From a virus, in IMG/VR virus record IMGVR_UViG_3300000062_000013, positions 1 to 37,178 of that record: a DNA stretch of 37,178 nucleotides; one strand, given 5' to 3'. Every line of letters starts with the position of its first letter. The first letter of the stretch is position 1. Positions 2,724 to 35,277 of the stretch are shown here, in pieces. The notes beneath the pieces are model-generated. The model was not told the origin of the DNA, made no database searches, and was given only the letters and a program-made list of their open reading frames with translations. Position numbers and translations under genes: made by a program.

Positions 2724-3128
2724 ATGATAGATTGGCTTACAGCTGACGAATTTAAAACGATGTTTCCCAGTACTGAAATATCGGAAGATGATTTTAAAGT
2801 TTTCAAAGATTCGGCAACAGAGGACATTAATTTTATAACTTCGGATAAAATTATTAAACTTGGTTTTGATAATTTAGAATCATGGGTACAGCACCGTATC
2901 AAGCGAGCTATCGCGTATCAAATTTTATTTTATAATGATAATGGCGGACTTGACGGCATGACGGAAGAAGATTATAATTCGGCTTCGGTCGGTTCTTTTT
3001 CTATTTCACAGGGCGGCAGTTCGCCAAATATTTCGCCGTTTATAATAAACGGCAGGCGAGCTCATCCAAAAATTAAAGAACTTCTCATGACAACGAATTT
3101 ATTAAACGCTGCTGTAAATGGAATTTAA
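2724..3128 (+). CDS. Hypothetical tail-module protein
   Basis: 134-aa ORF co-oriented within the tail operon, TAA stop. Contains one copy of the genome-wide palindrome (3036..3052), translated as SPFIING. Confidence 0.6.
   Translation: MIDWLTADEFKTMFPSTEISEDDFKVFKDSATEDINFITSDKIIKLGFDNLESWVQHRIKRAIAYQILFYNDNGGLDGMTEEDYNSASVGSFSISQGGSSPNISPFIINGRRAHPKIKELLMTTNLLNAAVNGI
3036..3052. repeat. Palindrome copy P1, CCGTTTATAATAAACGG (19-bp palindrome with flanks 3035..3053), inside a CDS
   Basis: Read directly. Lies within 2724..3128. Confidence 0.95.
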
Positions 3129-3142
3129 AAAAGGTGTTAAAA

Positions 3143-4765
3143 ATGGCAACCGTAAACGATTACGATTCTTTGGCTCTTGCGCTTCATTATGATTCTATCC
3201 ATAATGTCAGCAAATCATTGCCGCATAATCCTGCCGCTTCGGGTTGGAATGACATTTCTGGTAATAATAGAAATGGAACGTTTGCCACAAGCGGTTTTGA
3301 ATGGATTGATGAAAAAGGATTAAGATTCAACGGCGGGCAACGCTTAACATATTCAGCTTCGGGAATAACGATTAACCGAAGTTATACAATGTCGGTTTTA
3401 TTTAAACCCGTATTTGTTGGCTCATATCCACGTTTATTTGCAGAAAATACATTTCCCACGTTGTATTTAAGAACAAATGATTCTAATTTTACATACGGTG
3501 TTTATTCGCATGGTATTGATACCAATTATTTGGACCCGAACGGGCAACCAATTAGACCAATTGAAAACGATTGGAACCACGCTACCGTTGTTTATAATTA
3601 CGATACAAAAACTTTAAAACTTTATGTAAACGGTTTACTCGTTTCGACAAGAACAAATTTAACAACAACGGCAACGAATCAAAACATAGCTTATTTGGGT
3701 GCACGCTCTCAAAATGATAGATTTTTTACAGGTTCGATAAGTACCTTTATGCTATATGAAAGAGCGTTATCCGATACCGAAGTTTTAAATAATTATAAAA
3801 TCGATTATGAAAGATACGTAGTTGAGCCCGAACCCGAACCGCCAGAACCAATAACGGATACACCTATAAAAGTAATTGAAGGTATGTTTGAAAGTTCCCA
3901 AAATGGCTATGAGTGGGACATTTCTATTTTAAAATCTGAATTTTCAGAACGTCCGCCGTTTTTGATATTTTCAGATAATCAGAAAAATCCCCTTTATTTT
4001 AATCTCGAAAAAGAAACGGCAACAACATTATTTTATACCGTCCGTTTAAACGTTGTTGCCGGATTAAATGAAGTCTATATTTATGCTGCTGATAGCGATA
4101 AAAGCGATGAACGAAAAACATTTACAGAATTTACATCTTTTGCAAATGGGTTGCCGTGGGGTTGGCAAACAGCACCACACAGCGGCACATTATCAAGCCA
4201 AAATGATTTTAATAGTTTACAATGGGTTAATAATTTGGGTACTTTTTGGTTTGCAGAAAACGGATTTTTAAGACATCAAGGTGGCGATTCCTTTTTAAGA
4301 CCGCCTTTGCGCATGACGGAAGAAAGCAAGGGATTTACTTATGAATCGTTATTAGAATGTTTACCACATAACACTTATTGGATTTTTGGTTTCGGTTCAC
4401 GCAATACCAGTGCCGGAAATCATGCAGACGGTATTAATTGTAGAGATGCCTCAATGAGTGAGGTTTTTAATGCCATTAATGCCGTTTCATTTGGAAATTT
4501 CAATATTGAATCAACCCTTACAAAATTTGTTGCAGGTTTTTCCGTTTATGAAAACTCCGGAAAAGCGTATTTAATAAGAGAATCAACTTATACAAAATTC
4601 CAAAGTAACGAAGGCGTAAGAACTAATGACATTTCCCAAACGCGATTTTCTTTAAAATATTGGGGCGGTTATCAACAATCGCGTTGGTATTGGATGAGAA
4701 AAAGGCATAACCCGATACCGAACACGTTTATTATTAAAGATTATGAGCCCCCGATTCCCGAATAG
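3143..4765 (+). CDS. Tail fibre / receptor-binding protein with concanavalin-A-like (LamG) lectin domain; ends at an in-frame TAG
   Basis: ATG at 3143 is preceded by AAAAAGGTG. The N-terminal region (GLRFNGGQRLTY ... WNHATVVYNYDTKTLKLYVNGLLVS ... FMLYERALSDTEV) fits the Laminin_G_3 pattern common in phage fibres. An EPEPEPPEP linker follows. The apparent stop is TAG at 4763..4765, and the frame stays open into 4811..5206. Confidence 0.65.
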   Translation: MATVNDYDSLALALHYDSIHNVSKSLPHNPAASGWNDISGNNRNGTFATSGFEWIDEKGLRFNGGQRLTYSASGITINRSYTMSVLFKPVFVGSYPRLFAENTFPTLYLRTNDSNFTYGVYSHGIDTNYLDPNGQPIRPIENDWNHATVVYNYDTKTLKLYVNGLLVSTRTNLTTTATNQNIAYLGARSQNDRFFTGSISTFMLYERALSDTEVLNNYKIDYERYVVEPEPEPPEPITDTPIKVIEGMFESSQNGYEWDISILKSEFSERPPFLIFSDNQKNPLYFNLEKETATTLFYTVRLNVVAGLNEVYIYAADSDKSDERKTFTEFTSFANGLPWGWQTAPHSGTLSSQNDFNSLQWVNNLGTFWFAENGFLRHQGGDSFLRPPLRMTEESKGFTYESLLECLPHNTYWIFGFGSRNTSAGNHADGINCRDASMSEVFNAINAVSFGNFNIESTLTKFVAGFSVYENSGKAYLIRESTYTKFQSNEGVRTNDISQTRFSLKYWGGYQQSRWYWMRKRHNPIPNTFIIKDYEPPIPE

Positions 4766-4810
4766 GATTTTATACCAATCCGTTTTTGGACTGGCACAAG
4801 AACCGATTAT

Positions 4811-5206
4811 GTGAATGCGGAAGATTATAATAGAATTTCCAATAACATAGCCATAGTTAATGAAATTTATTCACGCCTCGGATATGTCGGCGAGCTCCGA
4901 CCAATGCGATGCGATTGGGATATATACCCCCTATGCATGACTTTTAAACAGTATTGGGCGAATATGCGCTTAAACATACAGGACCTTTACTTAATGTTTC
5001 CGTATGCTAAAATTTTTCCAAACGCTCCCCTGTATCCGTTATTTAATCCGCCTGGGGTTTTAAATCCTGTGGAAAGATTAACGGCAGACTTATTAAACGC
5101 TATGGAAATTACGCTTAAAAATTTATATGAATTTTCAATATCATTTGACCGCTTACCGATTTTACTTACAGAAAACCGTATGCGTCAAAGAATTGTTAGG
5201 AAGTGA
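4811..5206 (+). CDS. Tail-fibre C-terminal segment; probably the read-through continuation (from 4766) of 3143..4765 rather than an independent gene
   Basis: Same frame as 3143..4765 with no stop between 4766 and 4810. The only candidate start is a GTG with no SD. The FWTGTRTDYVNAEDYNRISNN motif (the DxNRIxxN type seen in Firmicutes-phage fibre proteins) begins upstream of that GTG. Confidence 0.55.
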   Translation: MNAEDYNRISNNIAIVNEIYSRLGYVGELRPMRCDWDIYPLCMTFKQYWANMRLNIQDLYLMFPYAKIFPNAPLYPLFNPPGVLNPVERLTADLLNAMEITLKNLYEFSISFDRLPILLTENRMRQRIVRK

Positions 5207-5212
5207 AATAAA

Positions 5213-7425: not shown

Positions 7426-7455
7426 AATCCGTTTATTATAAACGGATTCTTTTTT
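7426..7455 (+). terminator. Palindrome copy P2 extended to a 23-bp palindrome (AATCCGTTTATTATAAACGGATT) plus T-run; intrinsic-terminator-like
   Basis: Core at 7429..7445, flanking arms at 7426..7448, then C + T6 (7450..7455). Starts 10 nt after the TGA of the last tail gene. Confidence 0.7.
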
Positions 7456-8243: not shown

Positions 8244-8630
8244 ATGAAAATCATTAATTTTTTGGTTGGAAAAGAACCGTCAGTTATTGAAATTGACGGC
8301 GATTTAAAATCTATGCAAGCTACCGTAGGCGGTTATATCCAAGCCGTATATATAAATCATCCTTTCGTTATCGTTTGCGATGAAGAAGGATTATTAAAAC
8401 AAAAATGGCATAATCGAACAATCCCTATCAGAGGACAGACTTTTGGTATTCCGATTCATGGCGATTTTTTTATTTGTAAAATCGATATTGAAAACGAATT
8501 TACAGGAATTGATTTGGAAATTACGGCAACGGCTGACGAAATCAGAAAATATTTAAAAGAAAACGATGTTTATTTTACTGCTCTTACAGAATCGTATGCG
8601 GCAAAAGTAGAAAAGGAGATGAAAAAATGA
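8244..8630 (+). CDS. Hypothetical protein, DUF3846-like (tentative)
   Basis: 128-aa ORF. The pattern LKSMQATVGGYIQAV ... VIVCDEEGLLK ... GDFFICK resembles what I remember of DUF3846. Not verified. Confidence 0.5.
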   Translation: MKIINFLVGKEPSVIEIDGDLKSMQATVGGYIQAVYINHPFVIVCDEEGLLKQKWHNRTIPIRGQTFGIPIHGDFFICKIDIENEFTGIDLEITATADEIRKYLKENDVYFTALTESYAAKVEKEMKK

Positions 8631-8815
8631 ATGAAAAAAAATATTACAGTACGGGCGAAGTTGTAACAGCCCTTGACGGTTTAATAAGTCAAGGGCATTT
8701 AATTTTATTATGTCATCAAGGCAAAATAAAAGCGGTTCGGCGTAACGAAAAAGGGGCGCATTTTAAAATCCCTGCCGATGAATTGGAACGATTAAAAAAA
8801 GAATATGGAGTTTAA
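8627..8815 (+). CDS. Excisionase/MerR-type helix-turn-helix DNA-binding protein
   Basis: 62-aa ORF with an ATGA overlap onto the upstream gene. YSTGEVVTAL ... GKIKAVRRNEKGAHFKIPADELERL fits the HTH_17 (excisionase-family) pattern. Confidence 0.55.
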   Translation: MNEKKYYSTGEVVTALDGLISQGHLILLCHQGKIKAVRRNEKGAHFKIPADELERLKKEYGV

Positions 8816-8818: not shown

Positions 8819-9637
8819 ATGTCTGGGCTTAACGCTTTTCAATATATGGGCAGTAAATTAAATACGCTGCCTTTCCTGTATCGGAATTTTCCAAAAAATT
8901 ACCAAAAAATGCATTTCGTTGATGTGTTCGGCGGTTCCGGAGTTGTAACATTTAATAAGCCGCTGTCGGCTTTGGAAACCTACAACGATTTAAATTCAAA
9001 TGTGGTTCGCTTCTTTACGATTTTAAGAGAAGATTACGAAACCGCAATAAACGCTATCGGATACACGCCTTTTAATAGGGAAGAATACGATATAGCGGCA
9101 AAAACATTATCGGGGGGGGGCGGTACAGAATTAAGCGATTCAGACTTTGCCCGCTATTGGTATCTGCTTTTTAATGGTTCTTTTAACGGTAGCATTGAAC
9201 AAGGCGGCAGTTTTAAAACAATCATCGACCCGAACGGAGCGAATCCTGCCGTTAATTATTTTAACAAACAAAAGAAGTTAAAAGAAATTTCAAAACGGTT
9301 ATCAGCTGTTCAAATTGAAAATAAACCTTATTCGTATATTTTGCAAAAATACGATAGGGAAAGTACTTTTTTTTATTGCGACCCTCCTTATGTTTTGGAA
9401 ACGCGAACGGATAAAACGATTTATAAAAGATTCGATTTCACCGACAACGACCAAAAGAGATTTTTGAAACAAGTAAAAGCATTATCGGGCAAAGTCATGG
9501 TTTCAAATTATGATAATGATTTATACAACGATTCGTTATTGGATGACGGTTGGAGAAAATTGGCAGATAAAGAAAAAGTTATTGCCAGCTCAAAATTAAG
9601 GCGGTCGCAATCCGAAATAATCTATGTGAATTATTAA
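8819..9637 (+). CDS. DNA N6-adenine methyltransferase, D12 (Dam) class
   Basis: Three motifs fit the Dam/D12 class: N-terminal FQYMGSKLN, the AdoMet motif VDVFGGSGVV, and the catalytic FFYCDPPYV (DPPY). Carries a G9 homopolymer at 9112..9120. Confidence 0.8.
   Translation: MSGLNAFQYMGSKLNTLPFLYRNFPKNYQKMHFVDVFGGSGVVTFNKPLSALETYNDLNSNVVRFFTILREDYETAINAIGYTPFNREEYDIAAKTLSGGGGTELSDSDFARYWYLLFNGSFNGSIEQGGSFKTIIDPNGANPAVNYFNKQKKLKEISKRLSAVQIENKPYSYILQKYDRESTFFYCDPPYVLETRTDKTIYKRFDFTDNDQKRFLKQVKALSGKVMVSNYDNDLYNDSLLDDGWRKLADKEKVIASSKLRRSQSEIIYVNY
9112..9120 (+). repeat. G9 homopolymer inside the methyltransferase gene
   Basis: Reads tcg ggg ggg ggc ggt, encoding SGGGG. It is the longest G run I saw in this AT-rich genome. 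Confidence 0.9.
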
Positions 9638-11938: not shown

Positions 11939-11967
11939 AATAAGCCGTTTATTATAAACGGCTTATT
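11939..11967 (-). terminator. Palindrome copy P3 extended to a 29-bp palindrome (AATAAGCCGTTTATTATAAACGGCTTATT); terminator/attenuator-like on the minus strand
   Basis: Core at 11945..11961. On the minus strand it is followed by TTTTTTACTTTTTT. Lies between the DUF669-like stop (11963) and the polymerase start (11914). Confidence 0.6.
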
Positions 11968-12601
11968 CTGTGAAAATTTGTTTTTCAAGTTCAGCAATGT
12001 CGCTTAATTGCTTTTCAGCAAGCCCATAAGCATAAATGTTTGAATAAATATCGCCGGTCTTTTCGTTCTCGGTTTCAGTCTTTTCAATCAAATACATAAC
12101 GCCGTATGTGTATTCTTTGGTTTTTTTGTCTTTGAATGTTGAAAAAGCGTCATTGAGAGCAATACAATCTTCATCAATGTTATCAACACCGGCAAAATTA
12201 AATCCCTTGGTACGGATAAATTCAGCTTTATTTTGAGCTGCCCAAAAACTCGGTATCAGGCGGTTCAAATTGTAATAAAACATTTGAATGTTTTTCTTTA
12301 TACGTTTTTTATCATCATCGTTATCTTCCGATAGCTTTTTATCATAAATCGTATAAAGTTGATTATCAAGCTTACCATAAAATAAACCGTCGCCGCTTAC
12401 GCTTTGCTGAATCTGCCAAACAATTTTAGCATAAATATTGCCTTTCGTTTTTTCGCTTTGGCTTTCAAAAGTTTTCACTTCAAAAAGCGTAGCAACATAT
12501 TGGTCCGGTGGCAACGGCTCATTAAATAAATCGAATCCGTTGCGTTTGTCGTTGTAATTGTCCCAATCGTTGATTTCATCATTTAAATTTTCGTATGTCA
12601 T
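11963..12601 (-). CDS. DUF669-like protein (tentative), replication/recombination module
   Basis: 212-aa ORF next to the ERF gene. The LPPDQYVATLFEVKTFESQSEKTKGNIYAKIVWQI pattern resembles DUF669 as I recall it. Not verified. Confidence 0.5.
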   Translation of the reverse strand: MTYENLNDEINDWDNYNDKRNGFDLFNEPLPPDQYVATLFEVKTFESQSEKTKGNIYAKIVWQIQQSVSGDGLFYGKLDNQLYTIYDKKLSEDNDDDKKRIKKNIQMFYYNLNRLIPSFWAAQNKAEFIRTKGFNFAGVDNIDEDCIALNDAFSTFKDKKTKEYTYGVMYLIEKTETENEKTGDIYSNIYAYGLAEKQLSDIAELEKQIFTE

Positions 12602-12606: not shown

Positions 12607-12819
12607 TTACTCCTCTTGCTTTTTATTTTTGATTTTCCATGCTTTTAAAAGACGGCTGTCAATATCGCTTTCGGGAATAGACCATTTTTCAGAAAATTCC
12701 GGCTTAAAAGCGTTAGGGAAAGCCCCTTTTTTGATAAGTCGATAAATCCATATCGGCTGATTGTTGTAAATTTCTGCTACTGTTTTTACATCATATAAAA
12801 TTTCAGAATCGGCAGACAT
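12607..12819 (-). CDS. Excisionase-type helix-turn-helix DNA-binding protein
   Basis: 70-aa ORF with a TAATG overlap onto the ERF stop. VKTVAEIYNNQPIWIYRLIKKGAFPNAF ... WSIPESDI fits the HTH_17 pattern. Confidence 0.5.
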   Translation of the reverse strand: MSADSEILYDVKTVAEIYNNQPIWIYRLIKKGAFPNAFKPEFSEKWSIPESDIDSRLLKAWKIKNKKQEE

Positions 12820-13754: not shown

Positions 13755-14981
13755 TCATTTCTTCTTTGCCGCTTTCGCTTTTTCTTCGGCTTGCAACTTT
13801 TCGTAAAGTTTGGAATCGTGAACGAATGACATATAATAAGGCTGAGAATTGAACCATTCAATAGATTCTTTTACAACCTCGGCGGATGTTCTGCCGTCTG
13901 TTTTCGCTGTGTCAAAGTCGCTGGCAAGTGTTTCGACGATTTGCCCAAAAATTGTCATAAGTGAAGTATCGGATTCATTTTCCATAGCGGGAGAATCAAG
14001 CCAAAGTTCGGTAAGTCCCATAAGGACCTGGGCAAACTGATTTGCTTTTAATCCTTTTTCGACAGGTTCCGGAGCTTCTGCTTCTTCTTCATCGTCATCA
14101 ATTTCTTGGTTTGTCGCTGTTTCTTTGCCTTTTTCTTCGGCTTTTTTAATCATGGCTTCCATTTTCTTTACCAAATCGTCATCGGAAGCGCCTTTTAAGG
14201 ATTCTTCCCGAATCATGGTAATAACGGCGGTGGGCGTAATCTTTCCTTCAATGACTTTGCTTTTTACATCTTCGGGAGCCGTTGCCAATTTAATAGCGTC
14301 AGAAATATAGGTGTGGCTCTTACCGATTTTTTTGGAAAGCGTCATTACTGTAAATGTTTTTTCAATGTTGATTAAACGATTCCAAGCGTCGCCCAATTCC
14401 ATTTTCGTAAGCGGCTTGGAGTGTCCGCCGGTAATCATCATTTCAAAAAAGCGGTCGGTCCATGTTGTTTTTTCTTCTCGGATAATGATTTCAACAGATT
14501 CAATATTTGCGCCTGCGTCTGCATTTTCCGCTCTTCGTTTGTTCAAAAATGAAACGGCTTTTAAACGGCGGTGCCCGTCAATTAAAACGAGTTTGTTAAA
14601 AAGCGGTTTTGTGGTGTCGGTTTCCAAAAATACCGTAATCGGCTGATAAATTCCGTTTTCTTTGATACTGTCGCAAAGTTCAAAGAATGTTCCGTCATGT
14701 TCGCCGTAATCGATTCTTGCATTGAAACCGTCTTCGACAAATAAATCGGTAACAGGCACATTCATAACTTGATTATAGGCAATTTCGTATGCCGGAGGTT
14801 CATTTGCTGAAAAGTCTTGGACGGATTCAGCGGCTTCTGTTTTGGGTTTGGTTGTTGCTTTTGTTTTGGGGGTTGCCTTTTTGGTTTCGGTCGCCGCTGT
14901 TTCTGGGACCTCCAATTCGGTGCCGGCTGTTGTGGGTGTGGTTGTTTCTTCGGTGGGTTTATTCTTTTTTACGGGTGGCAT
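13755..14981 (-). CDS. ParB N-terminal-domain (ParB/Srx-like) protein
   Basis: LVLIDGHRRLKAV matches the ParB/sulfiredoxin box. The N-terminus is Thr/Lys/Pro-rich and low complexity. No ParA partner is present in the genome. Confidence 0.65.
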   Translation of the reverse strand: MPPVKKNKPTEETTTPTTAGTELEVPETAATETKKATPKTKATTKPKTEAAESVQDFSANEPPAYEIAYNQVMNVPVTDLFVEDGFNARIDYGEHDGTFFELCDSIKENGIYQPITVFLETDTTKPLFNKLVLIDGHRRLKAVSFLNKRRAENADAGANIESVEIIIREEKTTWTDRFFEMMITGGHSKPLTKMELGDAWNRLINIEKTFTVMTLSKKIGKSHTYISDAIKLATAPEDVKSKVIEGKITPTAVITMIREESLKGASDDDLVKKMEAMIKKAEEKGKETATNQEIDDDEEEAEAPEPVEKGLKANQFAQVLMGLTELWLDSPAMENESDTSLMTIFGQIVETLASDFDTAKTDGRTSAEVVKESIEWFNSQPYYMSFVHDSKLYEKLQAEEKAKAAKKK

Positions 14982-15055
14982 TTATTTGTATCTCCTATTA
15001 TCGATTTTAATTTGATTGTCTTAATTTTAGTTTTAAGACATGATTATAAAATACA

Positions 15056-15086
15056 TTTAAACTATATAAAGTTTATCGAATGTCAA
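15056..15086. promoter_or_regulatory. AT-rich border motif, copy B; candidate leftward promoter for the ParB-like gene
   Basis: TTTAAACTATATAAAGTTTATCGAATGTCAA. On the minus strand this gives a perfect TTGACA (15081..15086), with TAGTTT/TATAGT candidates 14-16 nt downstream. Confidence 0.4.
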
Positions 15087-15116: not shown

Positions 15117-15133
15117 CCGTTTATAATAAACGG
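15117..15133. repeat. Palindrome copy P4, CCGTTTATAATAAACGG
   Basis: Overlaps the VRR-NUC stop codon (protein ends SRLL*). Confidence 0.95.
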
Positions 15134-16077: not shown

Positions 16078-16094
16078 CCGTTTATTATAAACGG
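16078..16094. repeat. Palindrome copy P5, CCGTTTATTATAAACGG
   Basis: Lies between the SNF2 stop (16100) and the HNH start (16061). Confidence 0.95.
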
Positions 16095-18653: not shown

Positions 18654-18669
18654 CCGTTTATTATAAACG
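18654..18669. repeat. Palindrome copy P6, CCGTTTATTATAAACG (outer G replaced by A)
   Basis: Overlaps the stop of the small ORF 18661..18819 and supplies GGAG for the 18643 start. Confidence 0.9.
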
Positions 18670-19211: not shown

Positions 19212-21248
19212 TTATGAATCTTTAATATAAAATCTCTGTGTCCTGTTAGTGTTTTTATCCCATTTTGGCGTACTGTAATAATCCAAATCTTTTAATTGCG
19301 TTGAAAATGTATTCCTTGATAGCGGTTTATAATTATTGTTACGGCACCATGTCAAATAGTCTTTATAAAATGTGTCTGCCGGTGTCGATTCAATATCAAT
19401 TTGCGTTTCTTCACATTCATTTATAAATTCAATGACAGGATTATTGTATATTTTATATTCGTTTGCCATTTGTATTACTTTTTCGCTAACAGTAAACCCG
19501 TTTTTTTGGATTCTAAAATATGCTTCAATGAATAATTTAAGCCAATATTCAAGCGCGGCAGGCGTTGTAAGTTTTTTAATAATGTAAGGGTCAATTTTAA
19601 CTTTTCCCTCTTCCGTTATCGTTTCTTTTTTAAATGTTGCCAAAAAAGGAATGAAAATTAACCGTCTTAAAAACGCATAGCTTTTATCGCTACTTCGCGG
19701 CATTTCGTTTCCTGCAAAAATTAATTTTGCAGCGTTTTTAAAATCAATTCCTGATTTATGTTTTACGTTTGCCGTTGTCATGTCGCCCGTTACTAATTTT
19801 TTAAATGTATCTGTTTCTTCAATAAATTTTTCATTCACTTCTCCCGAAATATTGTATAGCTTGCCTATGATTTTTTCTAATAAAAATTCGCTTGATAGTT
19901 GTTTTAAACTTAAAAATGAGCCATTATTTTGCCCAAAAATCTCAATCAATACATTTAAAAACGTACTTTTTCCGTTTGCTCCGCCGCCGATTAAATAAAA
20001 TACTTGTCCGGCTTCATTTCTTAAACTTAAAATAAATCCGCCGATTTCCAAAATTAAATTTTCAATATCGGGGTCATTTACTGAAATATCTTTTAAGAAA
20101 TTATCAACATCGGCAGAATAAGCATTTTCATCATATTGTACATTAATTTTATACATTGAAACGATATCGGGGGACGGTGTTTTAAATTCGCCTGTTTTAT
20201 TGGACCAAACGCGGCTGCCGATATTGATATATTCAAATAAATCATTTGTTTGATTATCTAATTGTTCAATTCCGTCATCGGTTGCGGCTATATATTTTAA
20301 AATTTCGGTCCGTTCGCGGCTTGGTGTATTTGCAATGCTGTCTACTAATATTGATTCTATTTTATTGATTGAATAGTATCCGTCATAATAGATATGTGGC
20401 GCGTTATTTATTTTAATTACGTTTTTCGTTTTAATAAACCATGTCGCTGCTTCTTGAAATTTAAATCCATATCCTTTTTCATAAAAATCTAATTTATCGG
20501 CTTTATCCATGTCGCTTATTGTCGCATTTCTAAAAGTTTCCGGTCTTAAAATTTCTTTCATTTCGTTATCGGGTAACGGCTCTTGGAATACTTTTTGATT
20601 TATGATTTTGCAGCAATCCATAACATAGTCGGGCGGCATCATTTTTTGCAATCCCATAGCGAACTCGGAGAGTACGGTATTTCTGCCGTCGCCGTTTTGC
20701 ATATTTAAAAGTGAATCGCGGGGTTTGTAGTGCCAAAAAACATAGGGCAGCTCATCTAATTCTTCGCCTTTATACAGTTTATCGTTTATAATAAACGTGC
20801 GTGCCTTGTTTAGCATTTTAAGCGGTTCGTACGGTGGCGTTTTGGTATCTGTTGCTACTTTATACTCTACATTGAGCCCGATTGCGCAAACGTGTCCGGC
20901 TGGTATTGTTTTAGTCAGTCTTATTTTTGGATTGCTTGGATTTTTAAAATAAAAGTGTGCTCCTCTGCCTGTTTTTATGATTGTCGTTTTAAAATTCATT
21001 TTGAAACAAATTTCTTTTATGATTTCTGTTTCTTTTTCGGAATCGCAATCAAGGAACATGAGCCCTTCTTTAAGTTCGCCCGCTATTGATTGGTATTTTG
21101 TAAAATCGGTAACGGGCAATAGTTCTGTTTTGCGTGTCAATAATGGTTTTTTAATTCCGCTATTGGTAAGTTCTTTATCATCTAATCGGAATAGTCCGGC
21201 ATACAGGCTGCCTATGATTTCATAAAATTCTGTTAATGTCATGCTCAT
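19212..21248 (-). CDS. Bifunctional primase-polymerase / D5-type SF3 helicase
   Basis: N-terminal prim-pol motifs LMFLDCDSE (DxD) and TGRGAHFYF. C-terminal P-loop LIGGGANGKST followed by a D5/P4-primase-like region. Confidence 0.75.
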   Translation of the reverse strand: MSMTLTEFYEIIGSLYAGLFRLDDKELTNSGIKKPLLTRKTELLPVTDFTKYQSIAGELKEGLMFLDCDSEKETEIIKEICFKMNFKTTIIKTGRGAHFYFKNPSNPKIRLTKTIPAGHVCAIGLNVEYKVATDTKTPPYEPLKMLNKARTFIINDKLYKGEELDELPYVFWHYKPRDSLLNMQNGDGRNTVLSEFAMGLQKMMPPDYVMDCCKIINQKVFQEPLPDNEMKEILRPETFRNATISDMDKADKLDFYEKGYGFKFQEAATWFIKTKNVIKINNAPHIYYDGYYSINKIESILVDSIANTPSRERTEILKYIAATDDGIEQLDNQTNDLFEYINIGSRVWSNKTGEFKTPSPDIVSMYKINVQYDENAYSADVDNFLKDISVNDPDIENLILEIGGFILSLRNEAGQVFYLIGGGANGKSTFLNVLIEIFGQNNGSFLSLKQLSSEFLLEKIIGKLYNISGEVNEKFIEETDTFKKLVTGDMTTANVKHKSGIDFKNAAKLIFAGNEMPRSSDKSYAFLRRLIFIPFLATFKKETITEEGKVKIDPYIIKKLTTPAALEYWLKLFIEAYFRIQKNGFTVSEKVIQMANEYKIYNNPVIEFINECEETQIDIESTPADTFYKDYLTWCRNNNYKPLSRNTFSTQLKDLDYYSTPKWDKNTNRTQRFYIKDS
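20783..20797. repeat. Palindrome copy P7, CGTTTATAATAAACG (15-bp core), inside the primase-helicase CDS
   Basis: Read directly. Encodes ..FIIND.. on the minus strand. Confidence 0.9.
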
Positions 21249-22002: not shown

Positions 22003-22019
22003 CCGTTTATAATAAACGG
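22003..22019. repeat. Palindrome copy P8, CCGTTTATAATAAACGG
   Basis: Lies about 70 nt upstream of the first leftward early gene (start 21932), at the edge of the ORF-free control region. Confidence 0.95.
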
Positions 22020-23658: not shown

Positions 23659-23683
23659 AATCCCGTTTATTATAAACGGGATT
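23659..23683. terminator. Palindrome copy P9 extended to a 25-bp palindrome (AATCCCGTTTATTATAAACGGGATT); bidirectional terminator-like
   Basis: Core at 23663..23679. Lies between convergent genes ending at 23547 (+) and 23692 (-). T-rich sequence follows on both strands (TTTCTTATTTT and ATTATTTTTTTT). Confidence 0.65.
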
Positions 23684-23691: not shown

Positions 23692-24459
23692 TTAAACCGC
23701 TTCTTTGCCTGTGATTGTTAAGGGTTTATCCCATTTACCTATGTCGTAATGGCTCCAAAAGTTGGTATTGAAATAATCAATTCGTCCGTCGCAATCGCTG
23801 AAACGGTAAGATTCGGCAAACTCCTGAACATCTTTTAAAATTGCTCTGGCGGTCGGTGTCATGAAATCATAACGGTTGCCATAGTTCCAACCTTGAACGC
23901 GTCCCATCTCTTTCTCAACGATTTTTTGGACCGTTTCGGGTGTGTTGTCGCAGGCGTATCTTTCCGTTCTTATTGCGGTTTCAATCCAATTTTTAATGCC
24001 CTCATCCGTCCAAATTTGTTCCGGTGCTGTCATTAATTTAATGTTTAAATTCTGTCCGCCGCTGTAGTATTCCGTTGTTATGGAAAACTTCCAACCTTTA
24101 TATTTTTTCACATATTCGCGGACGCTGATAGTGATTTCTTTTAAATTCATACTTGAATTATAACGGTCGCCTGCCCAGCCGTGTTCCGTGTAAAACTGTG
24201 AGCGGAAGCCCTCGGCGGTTTCGGGTTGCGGGTCATCATAAAACGGTTTTGTTTCATGTCTGCAATTCGGGTGCCATACAGGGCTTGCTGTTGTTTTTTG
24301 GCTGAATGAAAGAATTTTAAAAGCGCGGTCAAATTCGACATTAACCGCCTTCATTGTTTCTAAATCGCCGCCTCGGTCGGGGTGGTGTTGCATTGCTAAT
24401 TTTCGGTATTCGGTTTTGAGCGTTTCAAGGGTTTTACAGCTGCTGAAAAATGTTTTCAT
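23692..24459 (-). CDS. J-domain (DnaJ-like) protein with uncharacterised C-terminal domain
   Basis: N-terminal LKTEYRKLAMQHHPDRGGDLETMKAVNVEFDRAF contains the HPD tripeptide of J domains. The remaining ~190 aa is unrecognised. Confidence 0.75.
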   Translation of the reverse strand: MKTFFSSCKTLETLKTEYRKLAMQHHPDRGGDLETMKAVNVEFDRAFKILSFSQKTTASPVWHPNCRHETKPFYDDPQPETAEGFRSQFYTEHGWAGDRYNSSMNLKEITISVREYVKKYKGWKFSITTEYYSGGQNLNIKLMTAPEQIWTDEGIKNWIETAIRTERYACDNTPETVQKIVEKEMGRVQGWNYGNRYDFMTPTARAILKDVQEFAESYRFSDCDGRIDYFNTNFWSHYDIGKWDKPLTITGKEAV

Positions 24460-24465
24460 TTTAAA

Positions 24466-24609
24466 TCACTCCTGATTTTCAAATTCGGTTCTTAATCTTA
24501 AAATGTCGCTCGGACTGTTTCCTAAAAGGTGTTGCCCGATAGCGTCCATGTATGCTTTGGCTGTTACTTCTTCGGTTTTTCCGTTTTTAAAATCTTTAAA
24601 ATATTTCAT
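24466..24609 (-). CDS. Small hypothetical protein (47 aa), below the ORF-track cutoff
   Basis: Hand translation gives MKYFKDFKNGKTEEVTAKAYMDAIGQHLLGNSPSDILRLRTEFENQE. Strong SD AAGGAGAG 8 nt upstream. Its end (CAGGAGTGA) supplies the SD for the J-domain gene. Confidence 0.5.
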   Translation of the reverse strand: MKYFKDFKNGKTEEVTAKAYMDAIGQHLLGNSPSDILRLRTEFENQE

Positions 24610-24622
24610 GTTGATTCTCTCC

Positions 24623-24865
24623 TTAAAGTCCAATGTTTAAAATTCCGTCTTTCATCGTTTCGGTTGTTGTCGCTTTGTATTGCTTGAAAATGGTTTTCAA
24701 GTGTTTTAAAATTTCGTTGTCGTTGCCTTCAATTTCAATTGTTTTTACCCAGTCATAAAAGGACTTCTCGCATTTGAAATCATTGGAAATTCTGTTTTCA
24801 ATTTTAATGTTTCTGTTTTTGTTCATATTTGAAAACGATTGATTTAAATTGATTCTGATTGTCAT
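24623..24865 (-). CDS. Hypothetical protein
   Basis: ORF track gives 24623..24910. I prefer the ATG at 24865 (MTIRINLNQ), which has AGGAG 10 nt upstream. Confidence 0.5.
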   Translation of the reverse strand: MTIRINLNQSFSNMNKNRNIKIENRISNDFKCEKSFYDWVKTIEIEGNDNEILKHLKTIFKQYKATTTETMKDGILNIGL

Positions 24866-24924
24866 GATTTTCTGGCTCCTGATTTTTAATTTAATTCTTA
24901 ACAAATACAAGAAGGCGTTAATAG

Positions 24925-26891: not shown

Positions 26892-26907
26892 CCGTTTATA
26901 ATAAACG
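26892..26907. repeat. Palindrome copy P10, CCGTTTATAATAAACG (outer G replaced by A)
   Basis: Starts 1 nt after the terminase TAA and ends 15 nt before the portal ATG. Confidence 0.9.
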
Positions 26908-29501: not shown

Positions 29502-29517
29502 CGTTTATAATAAACGG
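29502..29517. repeat. Palindrome copy P11, CGTTTATAATAAACGG (outer C replaced by T)
   Basis: Lies downstream of the head-morphogenesis stop and the T9 run. Confidence 0.9.
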
Positions 29518-31687: not shown

Positions 31688-32023
31688 ATGGTTCGCTCAA
31701 TACCGGTAAATCTTTTAATTCATTCAGTCGTTTATTATAAACGGATTGGTAAAACCGAATATGAAGAAATTCTTTATGATTCGGGAATTGAATTAAAAAA
31801 GGTAAGAGTAGAACCGAAACACCGAATTATAAAAAACACAGACGGCGACGATTTACAAAGTCAATCAATATTGTTTTATGATTCCGTTAAATCTGTACCG
31901 CGTGATATTGATTTTAATATGAATGATAAAATAACTTTTAACAATAAAGATTATATTATTCTTGCCGTTAATGATTTTTACGATAATAAAAAATTACATC
32001 ATAAAGAAATCGCGTTAGGGTGA
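31688..32023 (+). CDS. Head-tail connector (head-closure/adaptor position)
   Basis: 111-aa ORF with GGTG SD; call rests on synteny. Contains a palindrome copy (31729..31744), translated as VVYYKR. Confidence 0.5.
   Translation: MVRSIPVNLLIHSVVYYKRIGKTEYEEILYDSGIELKKVRVEPKHRIIKNTDGDDLQSQSILFYDSVKSVPRDIDFNMNDKITFNNKDYIILAVNDFYDNKKLHHKEIALG
31729..31744. repeat. Palindrome copy P12, CGTTTATTATAAACGG, inside a CDS
   Basis: Lies within 31688..32023. Confidence 0.9.
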
Positions 32024-33949: not shown

Positions 33950-34042
33950 ATGAGGCGTTGCAAGAACCGACCTGTTTTAAACGATTATATTAAAATCGAA
34001 CTTTACTATACCCTAATTCTAAATTGTCCCAAAACTTGAAAT
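33950..34042 (+). repeat. 93-nt element with conserved ends (copy 2)
   Basis: Begins ATGAGGCGTTGCAAGAACCGACCTGTTTT (33950..33978, 28/29 match to copy 1) and ends GTCCCAAAACTTGAAAT (34026..34042, 17/17). Total length is identical at 93 nt. Confidence 0.8.
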
Positions 34043-34085
34043 TTAAATTAATGGAAACAATTAAATAAAAATGGAAGTTAAATAA

Positions 34086-34622
34086 ATGACAGATGACGAA
34101 AAAACAATTTCATTTTCTGCAAACGGTTTAAAATCCGCTAGCGGAAAAGGCTTATTATATACCGAAACGCTCCGTTTTGAGATTTTAGGTATGGGTAGCC
34201 ATATTTTACAAGTGGACCAATACTCTAACAGTTTAAAATTATTAAAAACTGTGGAATTGTTGGAAAAAGAATATGAGCAGACGCTTTTATTAATTAATGA
34301 ATACCAAAAAGGAAATGACAGCGGCGAATTATTTGCAGCGGTTACCGAACTTGAAAAGAACGGCATTCTTTTAGCAAACGGTATTTTTGGCGAATCGACA
34401 GCAAACGAATTATGGAATTATTATCAGCAAGATATTTTAAGGTTTTTCGTTGTTACCGTATCGTTTTATCATGAGTATTTTATGCCTGCTGTTGCTCGTT
34501 GCGTTGAACGTTGGAAAACAAAAGCTTCCGACATTTACGGAATTGAAAACGATATTAAAGAATCGTATGAAGAAAGCTTATCGGCGTTGGATATATCAGA
34601 TGATGAGAATACACCGCTTTAA
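34086..34622 (+). CDS. Tail assembly chaperone (position-based)
   Basis: 178-aa acidic ORF between the major tail and tape-measure genes. Confidence 0.5.
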   Translation: MTDDEKTISFSANGLKSASGKGLLYTETLRFEILGMGSHILQVDQYSNSLKLLKTVELLEKEYEQTLLLINEYQKGNDSGELFAAVTELEKNGILLANGIFGESTANELWNYYQQDILRFFVVTVSFYHEYFMPAVARCVERWKTKASDIYGIENDIKESYEESLSALDISDDENTPL

Positions 34623-34643
34623 TAAAGTCCAGGAATAACGAAA

Positions 34644-35270
34644 ATGAGCGATATTTTAAAGCACGGAATTAAAGAAGAAATTTTATTTTACGGTCGCCCC
34701 TATACGCTTTATTTTTCTTTTAATCGGGTTTTAAATTCAATTTTCGTTATGAGTAACCCTGTTTTTTTGGAAGAAGATAAGATTAAAATTTCTTTTAATA
34801 ATTTGTTTAATTACAAAAGCGACAGCGAGAACCGTAAAAAAATAGACGAATTATCTTTTGATTTAAAAAAAATGTTTATCGCTTATGTTTTTGATATGTA
34901 TGTTAAAGAACAAGATGAAAAAACATATATTGTAAGTCCGGCTAATCCTATTTTTGATATTGAGCAGGACATTAAACTGGTATATGTTTCATTCGTTGAG
35001 GCTTACAATATCGATTTATCCAAAGAAAACGATAAACTTTCATGGCGAAAATTCCAAACGTTATTAAAAGAGTTACCGCCTGAATGTGCTTTGAATAGAA
35101 TTATTAAACAATATCGTCAAGCTAAGCCGCCGCGGGTGGAAGATTTTAAAAATTATGACGATTACGCCAATGCCCGCAATAATATAAAACGTTACGCAAT
35201 TAAATCGCCAGCTTACGATAAAGAGAAAATTAAATATATTCAAAGTGTAGTTCAGAAACGCCGTTTATAA
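34644..35270 (+). CDS. Gp15-like tail assembly protein (tentative)
   Basis: 208-aa ORF directly upstream of the tape measure. The N-terminal pattern ILFYGRPYTLYFSFNRVL resembles Phage_Gp15 as I recall it. Its TAA lies inside the palindrome at 35261..35277. Confidence 0.5.
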   Translation: MSDILKHGIKEEILFYGRPYTLYFSFNRVLNSIFVMSNPVFLEEDKIKISFNNLFNYKSDSENRKKIDELSFDLKKMFIAYVFDMYVKEQDEKTYIVSPANPIFDIEQDIKLVYVSFVEAYNIDLSKENDKLSWRKFQTLLKELPPECALNRIIKQYRQAKPPRVEDFKNYDDYANARNNIKRYAIKSPAYDKEKIKYIQSVVQKRRL

Positions 35271-35277
35271 TAAACGG
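35261..35277. repeat. Palindrome copy P13, CCGTTTATAATAAACGG
   Basis: Contains the TAA of the Gp15-like gene. Its right arm runs into the GGGAGG SD of the tape-measure gene. Confidence 0.95.

What the first reader, a model, noticed from the sequence alone, without database searches (positions are those of the whole stretch)
3036..35277. Thirteen copies of a perfect 15-17 bp palindrome (C)CGTTTAT[A/T]ATAAACG(G), mostly at cistron junctions
Copies are at 3036, 7429, 11945, 15117, 16078, 18654, 20783, 22003, 23663, 26892, 29502, 31729 and 35261.
- **Junction copies:** ten sit at gene boundaries. They overlap stop codons (15121, 18661, 35268), feed directly into an SD (18643 and 35289 starts), or lie between convergent genes.
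- **Terminator-like copies:** three have extended arms of 23-29 bp plus T-runs and look like intrinsic terminators (7426, 11939, 23659).
- **Why it is odd:** the sequence itself, not just the ability to form a hairpin, is conserved at all sites. The RNA stem would be a weak, A/U-rich stem of 7 bp. Such strict conservation points to sequence-specific recognition.
- **Candidates:** a dimeric DNA-binding protein (the genome encodes a ParB-like protein with no ParA, two excisionase-type HTH proteins and a possible RHH protein), an RNA-binding or processing factor acting on polycistronic transcripts, or a nuclease target.

I know of no described element with this sequence.
Basis: seen in the sequence. 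Interest (0 to 1): 0.75.

Follow-up and report, generated by a model that had tools for sequence, protein, structure and literature searches.

The report
Invariant dispersed palindrome in a phage
An uncultured tailed phage carries 14 identical, unusually evenly spaced copies of a 15-17 bp palindrome, most likely docking sites for a two-part DNA-binding protein (some also serving as transcription stop hairpins); similar unexplained repeats are already known in some mycobacterial phages.

Summary

- **Position:** ten copies lie at gene junctions (P~2e-7) and four inside genes.
- **Spacing:** on the circular 37.1-kb genome they are far more evenly spaced than random (P~3e-4, post hoc).
- **Unit:** the unit is a 17-bp dyad, C-CGTTTAT-W-ATAAACG-G. 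Isolated half-sites are not enriched.
- **Hairpins:** four copies sit in longer palindromes with unrelated flanking arms. Three of these have T-runs and are terminators.
- **Distribution:** the motif is confined to a narrow clade. Relative Rel1 has 3 perfect copies plus decayed orthologous ones, Rel3 has 3 near-copies, and 1.2 Mb of more distant relatives has none. It is not a repeat family in any host-type genome scanned.
- **ParB-like candidate:** it does not track the motif. Rel1 has sites but no ParB. Small HTH_17 proteins fit the distribution better.

Best reading (about 0.5): operator-like sites for a dimeric DNA-binding protein, with some recruited as terminators. RNA-hairpin roles remain a serious rival. 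The closest analogue is the unexplained 17-bp repeat of Cluster O mycobacteriophages, so this is a new member of a known kind.

The parts
1348..1362 (.). It is the core of a 25-bp perfect palindrome, 1343-1367, inside ORF 848-2683, and encodes VSVYNKRIP.
   Evidence: There is no indel relative to the orthologues in Rel1, Rel3 or Rel4.
3037..3051 (.). Motif copy 2. It is the core of a 19-bp palindrome, 3035-3053, inside the 3' part of ORF 2724-3128 (head-tail adaptor-like).
7430..7444 (.). Motif copy 3. It forms the top of a 23-bp hairpin, 7426-7448, followed by a T-run. This is the terminator at the end of the rightward late/tail operon, and it lies upstream of the cassette that contains HTH_17 gene 8627-8815.
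   Evidence: The equivalent site is conserved in Rel1 (L286:4652) and Rel3 (L289:14607), with compensating changes in the flanking arms.
11946..11960 (.). Motif copy 4. It forms the top of a 29-bp hairpin, 11939-11967, with a T-run on the minus strand. It lies between ORF 11963-12601 and the DNA polymerase gene.
   Evidence: -16.8 kcal/mol.
15118..15132 (.). Motif copy 5. It contains the stop codon of endonuclease gene 15121-15468 (minus strand) and lies 137 nt upstream of the ParB-like gene start.
16079..16093 (.). Motif copy 6, between the SNF2 helicase stop and the HNH gene. It lies 17 nt before the HNH start codon.
18655..18669 (.). Motif copy 7. It contains the stop codon of ORF 18661-18819 and lies 11 nt before the start codon at 18643.
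20783..20797 (.). Motif copy 8, inside the D5-type primase-helicase gene, where it encodes TFIIND. The orthologous Rel1 site differs at 3 bases (KFVINE).
22004..22018 (.). Motif copy 9. It lies at the edge of the ~1-kb non-coding ori-like region, 71 nt upstream of the first gene of the leftward early operon.
23664..23678 (.). Motif copy 10. It forms the top of a 25-bp hairpin, 23659-23683, with T-runs on both strands. This is a bidirectional terminator between convergent genes.
   Evidence: The Rel1 counterpart is CCGTTTATACCAAACGG.
26893..26907 (.). Motif copy 11, between the TerL stop (26891) and the portal start (26922).
29502..29516 (.). Motif copy 12, in the 255-nt gap before the scaffold/capsid genes, just upstream of a promoter-like site. 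Rel1 has a 1-mismatch copy in the same gap.
31729..31743 (.). Motif copy 13, inside the Minor_capsid_1 gene 31688-32023, where it encodes VYYKR. Rel1 has a 1-mismatch copy at the identical codon position.
35262..35276 (.). Motif copy 14. It contains the stop codon of ORF 34644-35270 and is followed directly by GGAGG and the tape-measure start at 35289.
4725..4739 (.). The only degenerate copy, CGTTTATTATTAAAG (2 mismatches), near the 3' end of ORF 3134-4765. It may be a decayed site within the largest inter-copy gap.
13755..14981 (-). ParB/Noc-like protein (408 aa) with no ParA partner.
   Evidence: Pfam HTH_ParB scores 26.4 against a cut-off of 22.6; ParB_N is weak. It matches PHROG 1033 at 1.8e-31 and PDB ParB/Noc chains at E=3e-5, with a DGHRR box. 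The gene is absent from Rel1 and present in Rel3 at 33% identity.
12607..12819 (-). Small HTH_17 (excisionase/MerR-like) DNA-binding protein number 1, next to the ERF gene. It is a candidate binder.
   Evidence: It is present in the window, Rel1 and Rel3 (all with the motif) and was not detected in Rel4 (no motif).
8627..8815 (+). Small HTH_17 DNA-binding protein number 2, in the cassette downstream of motif/terminator 7430. It is a candidate binder.
   Evidence: The Rel1 homologue (L286 4361-4567) has a perfect 27-bp palindromic copy 85 nt upstream.

Best explanation
The element is a 17-bp dyad-symmetric DNA site, C-CGTTTAT-W-ATAAACG-G. I propose that a dimeric sequence-specific DNA-binding protein recognises it as double-stranded DNA, like an operator.

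Sites are kept about every 2.7 kb around the circular genome. They sit preferentially in the few non-coding bases between cistrons. Where no junction is available, they have been written into coding sequence by point substitution.

Occupancy would act genome-wide in one of two ways. It could act as a roadblock or insulator, or silence transcription units. Alternatively the sites could serve as loading points for a protein that spreads or slides over the DNA.

Because a palindrome already sits at these junctions, several copies have been extended into real hairpins with T-runs. These copies also work as intrinsic terminators (7430, 11946, 23664).

**What is shown:** the existence, invariance, dyad symmetry, placement, spacing, restriction to one clade and in-situ turnover of the sites.

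**What is inferred:** that a protein binds them, and what binding does.

The binder is not identified. Judged by which phages have the motif, the small HTH_17 proteins (12607-12819, 8627-8815) or a host factor fit better than the ParB-like protein. The ParB-like protein could at most explain why this phage has so many perfect copies.
For: 1. **Invariance.** There are 14 identical copies, none with 1 mismatch and none expected by chance.
2. **The whole palindrome is the unit.** The half-site CGTTTAT occurs outside the palindromes 16 times against 14 expected. Beyond the 15-mer, only the flanking C/G is conserved, in 22 of 28 half-sites.
3. **The symmetry goes beyond what a hairpin needs.** T7 and A9 would lie in a 3-nt loop, yet they are invariant and complementary. 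The centre is always A or T, 8 A to 6 T on the plus strand. There is no significant bias relative to transcription (8 A-sense, 5 T-sense, 1 ambiguous).
4. **In-gene copies arose by substitution.** Four copies lie in ORFs in different reading frames. At least three show no indel against orthologues.
5. **Spacing is much more even than random.** The gap CV is 0.40 against 0.91, P~3e-4. The result also holds against a null that places copies at gene junctions.
6. **The arms are conserved by sequence, not just pairing.** At the tail-operon end, the 7-bp arms CCGTTTA/TAAACGG are identical in the window, Rel1 and Rel3. The adjacent stem bases covary and the centre drifts. This fits base-specific reading of duplex DNA better than a requirement for pairing alone.
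7. **Clade restriction.** GTTTANNNTAAAC occurs 14 times in the window, 5 in Rel1, 3 in Rel3 and 0 in Rel4. It occurs 0 times in 1.2 Mb of more distant relatives. No scanned genome or IMG/VR contig carries clusters.
8. **Size and architecture.** These match known operators and the 7-3-7 repeat of Cluster O phages, whose authors also inferred dimeric protein binding (PMC4351075).
Against: - No binder is identified and nothing here measures binding.
- Extension beyond the 17-mer by 3 or more complementary bases occurs in 4 of the 10 copies that carry the flanking C/G (P~3e-5). Three of these have T-runs. Hairpin formation is therefore selected at some sites.
- Variants in relatives keep the stem but lose the palindromic centre (CCGTTTATACCAAACGG, CCGTTTAGAGTAAACGG).
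- The five copies tightly abutting an SD are all 'A-sense' (P=0.03 one-sided). This hints at an RNA- or coding-level constraint.
- Operator families usually include degenerate members; this one has none.
- The ParB-like protein does not track the motif.
- The spacing test was chosen after looking at the data.
Confidence: 0.5

Rival explanations
1. The element works as an RNA hairpin. In this view the copies are intercistronic stem-loops in the polycistronic transcripts. They would act as terminators or attenuators, 3'-end stabilisers or processing signals that set relative expression of operon segments. The fixed sequence would be read by an RNA-binding protein or RNase.
For: - Ten of 14 copies are at cistron junctions.
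- Three or four are convincing intrinsic terminators.
- Four copies have extended arms of unrelated sequence, which is covariation.
- The copies bracket plausible expression blocks: after TerL, before the scaffold/capsid genes, before the tape-measure gene and at the operon end.
- Variants in relatives keep the stems but change the loops.
- All five SD-abutting copies share one orientation.
Against: - The core hairpin is very weak, -1.8 to -5.1 kcal/mol. Several junction copies fold at only -3.3 to -3.6 kcal/mol and have no T-run.
- Pairing alone would let the stem drift by compensatory change. Instead the 7-bp arms are invariant across three diverged phages while the neighbouring stem bases covary.
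- The loop is UAA or UUA at near-equal frequency with respect to the sense strand.
- Four copies lie inside ORFs, one as a -13 kcal/mol hairpin.
- Even spacing is not expected for such a role.
- There is no Rfam match.
- The stems are too short for RNase III, which needs roughly two helical turns (established knowledge).
Confidence: 0.25
2. The element works as a single-stranded DNA hairpin or extruded cruciform used in replication or recombination. Examples are lagging-strand priming signals for the D5-type primase-helicase, or entry sites for the ERF/Hjc-like recombination module. A palindrome would work on either strand.
For: - The spacing is even, at about 2.7 kb, which is Okazaki-fragment scale.
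- The sites are orientation-independent and are tolerated inside genes.
- The AT-rich centre favours extrusion (inference).
- The phage encodes a D5 primase-helicase, polB, ERF, an SNF2 helicase and a small Hjc-like endonuclease. The SNF2 helicase and the endonuclease are present in the three motif-bearing phages and were not detected in Rel4.
Against: - Most copies are only 15-17 bp, too short and weak for stable hairpins or cruciforms.
- Rel4 has a 40%-identical primase and a polB but no motif.
- A separate iteron-rich ori-like region already exists.
- I know of no precedent for sequence-invariant priming hairpins in such phages.
Confidence: 0.1
3. The element is a selfish or recombination-spread palindrome with no function for the phage. 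It would be a miniature REP/MITE-like sequence, or a target copied around by an endonuclease or by template switching.
For: - In Rel1 one perfect copy sits in a 16-aa in-frame insertion in TerL that the window and another homologue lack.
- HNH and Hjc-like endonuclease genes are flanked by copies at 15118 and 16079.
- Many copies lie at mosaic boundaries between the window and Rel1.
Against: - Only 17 bp are conserved. There are no shared flanks or target duplications.
- No transposase or RAYT-like gene was found.
- In-gene copies at 1348, 20783 and 31729 show no indel.
- Orthologous copies persist across about 50% protein divergence, which implies purifying selection.
- The window has no decayed copies apart from one.
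- Even spacing is unexpected for a selfish element.
Confidence: 0.07

Closest known systems
17-bp repeat of Cluster O mycobacteriophages (Corndog and relatives), 5'-TGTTCGGNNNCCGAACA (PMC4351075)
   Same: - Both have 7-bp inverted arms separated by an A/T-rich 3-bp centre; here that reads CCGTTTA-TWA-TAAACGG.
- The arms are invariant across all copies in a genome.
- Copies are spread through the genome, in short intergenic gaps and inside ORFs.
- There is no clear orientation rule.
- The motif is absent from the host and from other phages.
- Sites are lost by single base changes between relatives.
- The phages carry an orphan ParB-like gene, with no ParA and no integrase.
- The function is unknown; the authors inferred a dimeric DNA-binding protein.
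   Different: - The sequence is unrelated, AT-rich rather than GC-rich. The host is probably Firmicutes, judging from strong GGAGG ribosome-binding sites.
- There are 14 copies in 37 kb, against 34 in about 70 kb.
- Here the centre is fixed to TWA.
- Several copies are extended into terminators and supply stop codons.
- Spacing is unusually even.
- Copy number differs sharply between relatives.
KorB-OB / KorA-OA operator network of plasmid RK2 (PMC11790492)
   Same: - It uses a short perfect palindromic operator with an odd central base pair (OB core TTTAGCSGCTAAA) in many dispersed copies.
- A ParB-family CTPase loads at these operators and slides up to about 1.5 kb to silence promoters.
- The window phage encodes a ParB/Noc-like protein with a copy 137 nt upstream of its gene.
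- KorA's operator TGTTTAGCTAAACA happens to share the arms GTTTA/TAAAC.
   Different: - The ParB-like gene does not co-occur with the motif across relatives.
- No ParA/IncC or KorA-like partner was found.
- The ParB_N match is below the Pfam cut-off, and the ENLQR-type box is not conserved.
- Most copies are at cistron junctions rather than promoters.
- The number of OB sites (12) is from my own recollection.
Stoperators of Cluster A mycobacteriophages (L5 gp71 repressor; PMC9283540, PMC6550527)
   Same: They are many copies of a 13-14 bp site spread across the phage genome, mostly in short intergenic gaps inside operons. Bound repressor blocks elongating RNA polymerase and silences the genome (abstracts).
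   Different: Stoperators are asymmetric, bound by a monomer and oriented with transcription. Those phages are temperate and have a known repressor. Here the site is a perfect dyad with no orientation rule, and no repressor or integrase was found.
Conserved inverted repeats (CIRs) bound by the phiC31 repressor (my own recollection, not checked here)
   Same: They are 17-bp conserved inverted repeats at well over a dozen loci in a Streptomyces phage genome. Many are not at promoters, and they are bound by a phage repressor.
   Different: That is a temperate actinophage with an identified repressor. This comparison was not tested with the tools here.
REP/BIME extragenic palindromes and intrinsic terminators
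   Same: They are palindromes at the 3' ends of cistrons inside operons. Some act as terminators or mRNA stabilisers. Three or four copies here meet the stem-plus-T-run definition.
   Different: REPs are longer, imperfect, chromosomal and mobilised by RAYT transposases. Ordinary terminators do not share one invariant sequence. Most copies here are weak 6-7 bp stems without T-runs.

Membership tests
Dispersed dyad-symmetric repeats of phage genomes (Cluster O type) | Short inverted-repeat arms that are invariant across many copies within one genome | tested here: met
   There are 14 of 14 identical copies, none with 1 mismatch, and none expected by chance.
Dispersed dyad-symmetric repeats of phage genomes (Cluster O type) | Copies spread through the whole genome, in intergenic gaps and inside ORFs, with no fixed orientation to transcription | tested here: met
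   Ten copies are at junctions and 4 are in genes. The central base is 8 A-sense, 5 T-sense and 1 ambiguous.
Dispersed dyad-symmetric repeats of phage genomes (Cluster O type) | The motif is specific to the phage clade and is not a repeat of hosts or unrelated phages | tested here: met
   Only singletons occur in IMG/VR and in 185,579 representative genomes. There are 0 copies in 1.2 Mb of distant relatives, against 14, 5 and 3 in the window, Rel1 and Rel3. Caveats: the genome scan listed 100 stretches, which may be a cap, and the true host is unknown.
Dispersed dyad-symmetric repeats of phage genomes (Cluster O type) | Bound by a dimeric DNA-binding protein | not testable with these tools
   This needs EMSA, DAP-seq or ChIP-seq. 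It is also unproven for Cluster O itself.
ParB/KorB CTPase clamp with parS/OB-type sites | A protein with the ParB N-terminal CTPase fold, including the GxxRxxA arginine box and the ENLQR-type box | tested here: inconclusive
   Pfam ParB_N scores 16.6 bits, below the cut-off of 26.3. phmmer matches ParB/Noc chains at E=3e-5 across residues 67-256, and DGHRRLKA aligns with GERRxRA. The ENLQR-equivalent stretch reads TGGHS.
ParB/KorB CTPase clamp with parS/OB-type sites | A ParB-type HTH DNA-binding domain | tested here: met
   PF17762 HTH_ParB scores 26.4 bits against a cut-off of 22.6. PHROG 1033 matches at 1.8e-31.
ParB/KorB CTPase clamp with parS/OB-type sites | The protein and its palindromic sites co-occur and co-vary across related elements | tested here: not met
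   Rel1 has 3 perfect and 2 one-mismatch copies but no ParB gene; contig L293 shows the endonuclease gene running directly into ERF. Rel3 has a 33%-identical ParB but only 3 imperfect copies in 22 kb.
ParB/KorB CTPase clamp with parS/OB-type sites | A ParA-type partner (for partition) or a KorA-type clamp lock | tested here: not met
   No ParA or KorA-like family was hit in any scanned ORF.
Intrinsic (Rho-independent) terminators | A stable stem-loop immediately followed by a T-run on the transcribed strand | tested here: inconclusive
   The criterion is met at 7430, 11946 and 23664 (both strands). It is weakly met at 22004 (plus strand), 15118 and 35262. It is not met at 1348, 3037, 16079, 18655, 20783, 26893 and 31729. 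A subset are terminators; the family as a whole is not.
Stoperators (Cluster A mycobacteriophages) | An asymmetric site oriented with transcription, plus an immunity repressor in a temperate phage | tested here: not met
   The site is a perfect dyad with mixed orientation. No repressor or integrase was detected.
REP/MITE-like mobile palindromic elements | A longer conserved unit with flanks or target duplications, a cognate transposase, and copies that appear as insertions | tested here: not met
   Only 17 bp are conserved and there is no transposase. Three in-gene copies show no indel. One exception is the Rel1 TerL copy, which lies in a 16-aa insertion.
Sigma-70-type promoters | A -10 hexamer with a -35 element at 16-18 nt and a sensible leader | tested here: not met
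   The motif contains TATAAT, but the aligned flanks show no -35 conservation. At SD-abutting copies the predicted transcription start would fall inside the SD (inference).
Chi-like or other half-site signals | The short asymmetric half-site is itself over-represented | tested here: not met
   Outside the palindromes, CGTTTAT occurs 16 times against 14 expected, and ATAAACGG 6 times against 2.8.

The most novel reading that the evidence does not exclude
The copies could form a genome-wide array of loading sites, one about every 2.7 kb. From them an orphan phage ParB/KorB-like clamp, or a small HTH protein working with it, would spread over the whole phage chromosome to silence, insulate or compact it. 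This would be a 'parS array' used for whole-genome control rather than partition. It would also explain the orphan ParB-like gene and the 17-bp repeats of Cluster O mycobacteriophages.
Probability: 0.2. Interest if true: 0.75.

Novelty: new member of a known kind. Interest (0 to 1): 0.55.

Why it matters
Invariant palindromes dispersed through phage genomes have been described before: the Cluster O repeats, the phiC31 CIRs and the stoperators. For the symmetric type that is not at promoters, the function is still unknown.

This phage offers a compact second example, 37 kb with 14 sites, from a different host phylum. It adds three features:
- **Spacing:** the sites are unusually evenly spaced.
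- **Terminator overlap:** some sites clearly double as terminators.
- **Natural comparison set:** one relative has many perfect sites plus ParB, one has fewer and decaying sites without ParB, and one has ParB with few sites.

If a binder is found, this could show how small phages impose genome-wide control with a single short site. It could also give a function to orphan ParB-like or HTH_17 proteins, which are common on mobile elements (PMC12704722). If the copies turn out to be only terminator or processing hairpins, the finding is a curiosity of one lineage.

Tried and rejected
- **Promoter family:** the motif contains TATAAT, but there is no conserved -35 in the oriented alignment, and transcription starts would fall inside the SD.
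- **Chi-like or half-site signal:** half-sites are not enriched outside the palindromes.
- **Generic host repeat or terminator family:** the 17-mer gives only singletons in genome contigs (about 100 stretches) and 5 in IMG/VR. The 15-mer gives 97 singletons in IMG/VR. The recurrent Alistipes and Oscillospiraceae hits are coding coincidences at one conserved gene each.
- **Known RNA family:** nothing meaningful in Rfam, and no tRNAs.
- **Assembly or adapter artefact:** excluded, because in-frame copies and the same motif occur in independently assembled Rel1 contigs.
- **Methyltransferase target:** the D12-class Dam-like MTase (8819-9637) is absent from Rel1, and such enzymes read short sites.
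- **ParB as the binder, tested by co-occurrence:** this failed. A search for ParB relatives found almost none and none in IMG/VR. The two weak ParB hits, P0002 and P0003, sit on short unrelated contigs without the motif.
- **Search for more clade members:** TerL and portal scans of IMG/VR, a polB scan of JGI metagenomes and a P0077 look-up gave only Rel1, Rel3 and Rel4 plus uninformative fragments.
- **PDB sequence searches with the two HTH_17 proteins:** nothing useful.
- **Other repeated palindromes in 80 distant relatives:** none found.

Full report
**Observation**

An exact search finds 14 copies of CGTTTATWATAAACG in the window. None appeared in any of 100 dinucleotide-preserving shuffles. 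The fourteenth (1348-1362) lies inside ORF 848-2683. Allowing up to three mismatches adds a single site, 4725 with two mismatches, so there are no one-mismatch variants at all.

Treating the two arms of each copy as 28 half-sites, only one further position is conserved: a C before the 15-mer, in 22 of 28. The element is therefore the 17-bp dyad C-CGTTTAT-W-ATAAACG-G. The half-site alone is not enriched outside the palindromes, at 16 observed against 14 expected.

**Genome context**

The window is an ENA metagenome contig (ERZ27245258, k141_1692669). It has a 79-nt terminal direct repeat, so it represents a circular 37,099-bp genome. The tape-measure gene runs from 35289 across the junction to 523.

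It is a siphovirus-like phage. There is no near relative in INPHARED.
- **Late rightward operon:** terS, TerL, portal, capsid, tail.
- **Early leftward operon:** D5-type primase-helicase, SNF2 helicase, HNH, a small Hjc-like endonuclease, a ParB/Noc-like protein, ERF, a small HTH_17 protein and a family-B polymerase.
- **Small cassette:** a second HTH_17 protein and a Dam-like methyltransferase.

No integrase, repressor, ParA, sigma factor or transposase was detected. Strong GGAGG ribosome-binding sites and 36% G+C suggest a Firmicutes host (inference).

**Placement**

Ten copies are at least partly outside ORFs, although only 11% of 15-mer positions are (P=1.6e-7).
- Three genes use the motif's TAA as their stop codon.
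- Four copies end 11-17 nt before a start codon.
- Four copies lie inside ORFs, in two different reading frames.

Around the circle the gaps run from 961 to 4516 bp, with a CV of 0.40. Random placement gives a CV of 0.91 (P~3e-4). A null that puts ten copies at gene junctions gives P~5e-4. This test was devised after looking at the data and should be read with that caveat.

**Hairpins**

The bare core folds weakly, at -1.8 to -5.1 kcal/mol. In context the copies range from -3.3 to -16.8 kcal/mol. Four of the ten copies with the flanking C/G extend the palindrome by three or more further pairs, using unrelated sequences (P~3e-5). These are 1343-1367, 7426-7448, 11939-11967 and 23659-23683.

Three of them are followed by T-runs and are picked up as terminators. 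They mark the end of the late operon, a site before the polymerase gene, and a bidirectional site between convergent genes. The fourth is a 25-bp perfect palindrome inside a gene with no T-run, and I cannot explain it. One possibility is that template switching tends to extend an existing palindrome (inference).

**Relatives**

The portal and polymerase identify one close relative, Rel1, at 45-66% protein identity. It was assembled at about 100% identity from at least six samples. A JGI contig (L293) physically joins its two fragments.

Two more distant relatives were also found:
- Rel3: Logan ERR14656823, polymerase 42% identical.
- Rel4: polymerase 42% identical.

*Copies in Rel1.* Rel1 carries three perfect copies:
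- one inside TerL;
- one inside the 123-aa gene after the tape measure;
- one that is a 27-bp palindrome at the tail-operon end.

It also has one-mismatch copies at the places orthologous to 29502 and 31729, and two- or three-mismatch remnants at the places of 23664 and 20783.

*Copies in Rel3, Rel4 and more distant phages.* Rel3 has three near-copies in 22 kb and Rel4 has none. The relaxed pattern GTTTANNNTAAAC occurs 14, 5, 3 and 0 times in these four phages. It is absent from 1.2 Mb of IMG/VR phages with about 37%-identical portals. Neither IMG/VR nor the 185,579-species genome collection contains any contig with clustered copies.

*What this means.* The motif is a property of this narrow clade and has been held by selection across deep divergence. 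Sites are nevertheless gained and lost.

**How copies arise**
- At 1348, 20783 and 31729 there is no length difference from orthologues.
- In the primase the window reads TFIIN where Rel1 reads KFVIN, so the site was made or lost by point substitution.
- One Rel1 copy sits in a 16-residue in-frame insertion in TerL. Small insertions therefore also contribute.

**DNA or RNA?**

At the tail-operon end, the arms CCGTTTA/TAAACGG are an island of identity in otherwise diverged DNA in the window, Rel1 and Rel3. The adjoining stem bases covary and the three central bases differ. If only pairing mattered, the arms should have drifted as their neighbours did.

Several other observations point the same way:
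- In the window, the two bases flanking the centre would be unpaired in a 3-nt loop, yet they are invariant and complementary.
- The centre is A or T in near-equal numbers with respect to the sense strand.
- Copies occur inside genes.
- The spacing is even.

Together these favour base-specific recognition of duplex DNA by a symmetric dimer, with some sites additionally recruited as terminators.

The RNA alternative keeps real weight:
- most copies are at cistron junctions;
- some copies have extended, covarying arms;
- variants in relatives keep the stems but change the loops;
- all five SD-abutting copies share one orientation (P=0.03).

**Who binds?**

*The ParB-like protein.* It has a ParB HTH domain above the Pfam cut-off and a weak ParB_N match. 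It also shows ParB/Noc-like similarity with a DGHRR box, though the ENLQR-type box is not conserved. One copy lies 137 nt upstream of its gene.

However, Rel1 has no ParB gene: the endonuclease gene runs straight into ERF on contig L293. Rel1 still keeps perfect copies, including ones not shared with the window. Rel3 has a 33%-identical ParB but only three imperfect copies in 22 kb. ParB is therefore not required for the motif. At most it might explain why this phage has so many perfect copies. Rel1's decayed orthologous sites would fit relaxed selection after ParB loss, but that is an inference.

*The HTH_17 proteins.* They fit the distribution better:
- Number 1 is present in the window, Rel1 and Rel3, and was not detected in Rel4.
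- Number 2 is present in the window and Rel1, and in both it lies downstream of the tail-end copy.

With only four genomes this is weak evidence.

*A host factor.* This cannot be excluded.

**Comparison with known systems**

The nearest described case is the repeat of Cluster O mycobacteriophages, 5'-TGTTCGGNNNCCGAACA. It has 7-bp invariant arms and an A/T-rich 3-bp centre, with 34 copies per genome. Copies lie both between and inside genes and show no orientation rule. The repeat is absent from the host, and sites are lost by single changes.

Those phages also have an orphan ParB-like gene and no integrase. Their authors inferred binding by a dimeric protein of unknown role (PMC4351075).

RK2's KorB/OB and KorA/OA network shows how a ParB-family clamp can use dispersed perfect palindromes for long-range silencing (PMC11790492). 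Here, however, the co-occurrence criterion fails. Stoperators are asymmetric and oriented. REP elements and ordinary terminators do not fit the invariance or the weak stems.

**Verdict**

The finding is a real, statistically robust and selectively maintained sequence family. It is a new member of a known but mechanistically unsolved kind. I put about 0.5 on a dyad-symmetric protein-binding site with some terminator recruitment. I put 0.25 on a primarily RNA-level hairpin, 0.1 on a replication or recombination hairpin, and under 0.1 on a selfish element.

Noticed in passing
window 22020-23076 (especially 22124-22558): This is a ~1-kb non-coding, AT-rich region between the early leftward operon and gene 23077-23547. 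Ten of the window's 12 TGTAAGG/CCTTACA heptamers cluster here in both orientations (2.1 expected genome-wide), together with a (CAAAT)n tandem run at 22355-22380. It looks like an iteron-type replication origin. Rel1 has a ~1-kb non-coding gap at the same place (L107 4795-5815).
   Followed up: partly
window 1-79 and 37100-37178: The first and last 79 nt are identical, so the contig is a circular assembly of 37,099 bp. The 777-aa tape-measure ORF starts at 35289 and ends at 523 across the junction. ORF 182-523 in the mechanical ORF list is its C-terminus.
   Followed up: yes
L289 (Rel3) 3760, 5260, 10598, 10917, 13011, 16305, 16481, 19247: Rel3 is 37% G+C and has a ParB homologue. It carries 8 copies in 22 kb of the GC-rich palindrome CGCCGGCG (about 1.3 expected under an order-2 model). 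Five or six of them extend to GCGCCGGCGCGA, mostly inside genes. This may be a second, different dispersed palindrome family in this clade.
   Followed up: partly
window 5599, 11168, 27392, 34136, 36508; also 1900, 20162, 28195, 28526, 31551, 35393: The palindromic octamers CGCTAGCG (5 copies, 0.15 expected) and CGATATCG (6 copies, 0.64 expected) are over-represented. All copies are in coding sequence and have no conserved flanks. The meaning is unknown.
   Followed up: partly
L016, L026, L032, L046, L052, L075, L079, L102, L105 (for example L075 2230-2246): The identical 17-mer CCGTTTATWATAAACGG sits between the divergent parE/gyrB-like and plsY-like genes, about 20 nt upstream of the former's start. 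This holds in nine uncultured gut or rumen Bacilli/Erysipelotrichaceae MAG species with 32-36% G+C, similar to the phage. It could be a host operator and a clue to the host or to a host binder. However, the whole intergenic region is conserved there, so the match may be a coincidence.
   Followed up: partly
Rel1 TerL (L107 8743-8796; L108 1737-1790): Rel1's large terminase has a 16-residue in-frame insertion (GTVVRGESVYNKRAGG) that the window and another homologue lack. The insertion carries a perfect motif copy in the same reading frame (SVYNKR) as the window's copy in an unrelated tail gene.
   Followed up: partly
window 13755-15132 compared with L293/L286 (Rel1): The ParB-like gene is present in some relatives and absent in others. 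In Rel1 the endonuclease gene is followed directly by ERF. In the window the ParB gene sits between them, with motif copy 15118 at its upstream edge. Several other segments that differ between the window and Rel1 are also bounded by a motif copy: 17406-18643, 23692-24910 and the cassette after 7430.
   Followed up: partly
window 2724 to about 3900: Gene 2724-3128 and the N-terminal ConA/Laminin_G-like domain of ORF 3134-4765 have no counterpart in Rel1, where the homologue starts at about residue 259. Motif copy 3037 lies inside this window-specific segment.
   Followed up: no
literature (PMC11790492): The RK2 KorA operator, quoted as TGTTTAGCTAAACA, has the same arms GTTTA/TAAAC as this motif, but with a 2-bp centre rather than 3 bp. 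This is probably a coincidence.
   Followed up: no
window about 36800-37178 and 80-523 (tape-measure gene): This is a Gly-rich, low-complexity stretch of the tape-measure protein (GGGGGGGGFSGGGGGGGSGSGSG). The 15-mer GCCCCCACCACCGCC (canonical form; either strand) is repeated 4 times in the window; its position was not mapped, and the assignment to this stretch is inferred from its Gly-rich reverse complement.
   Followed up: no
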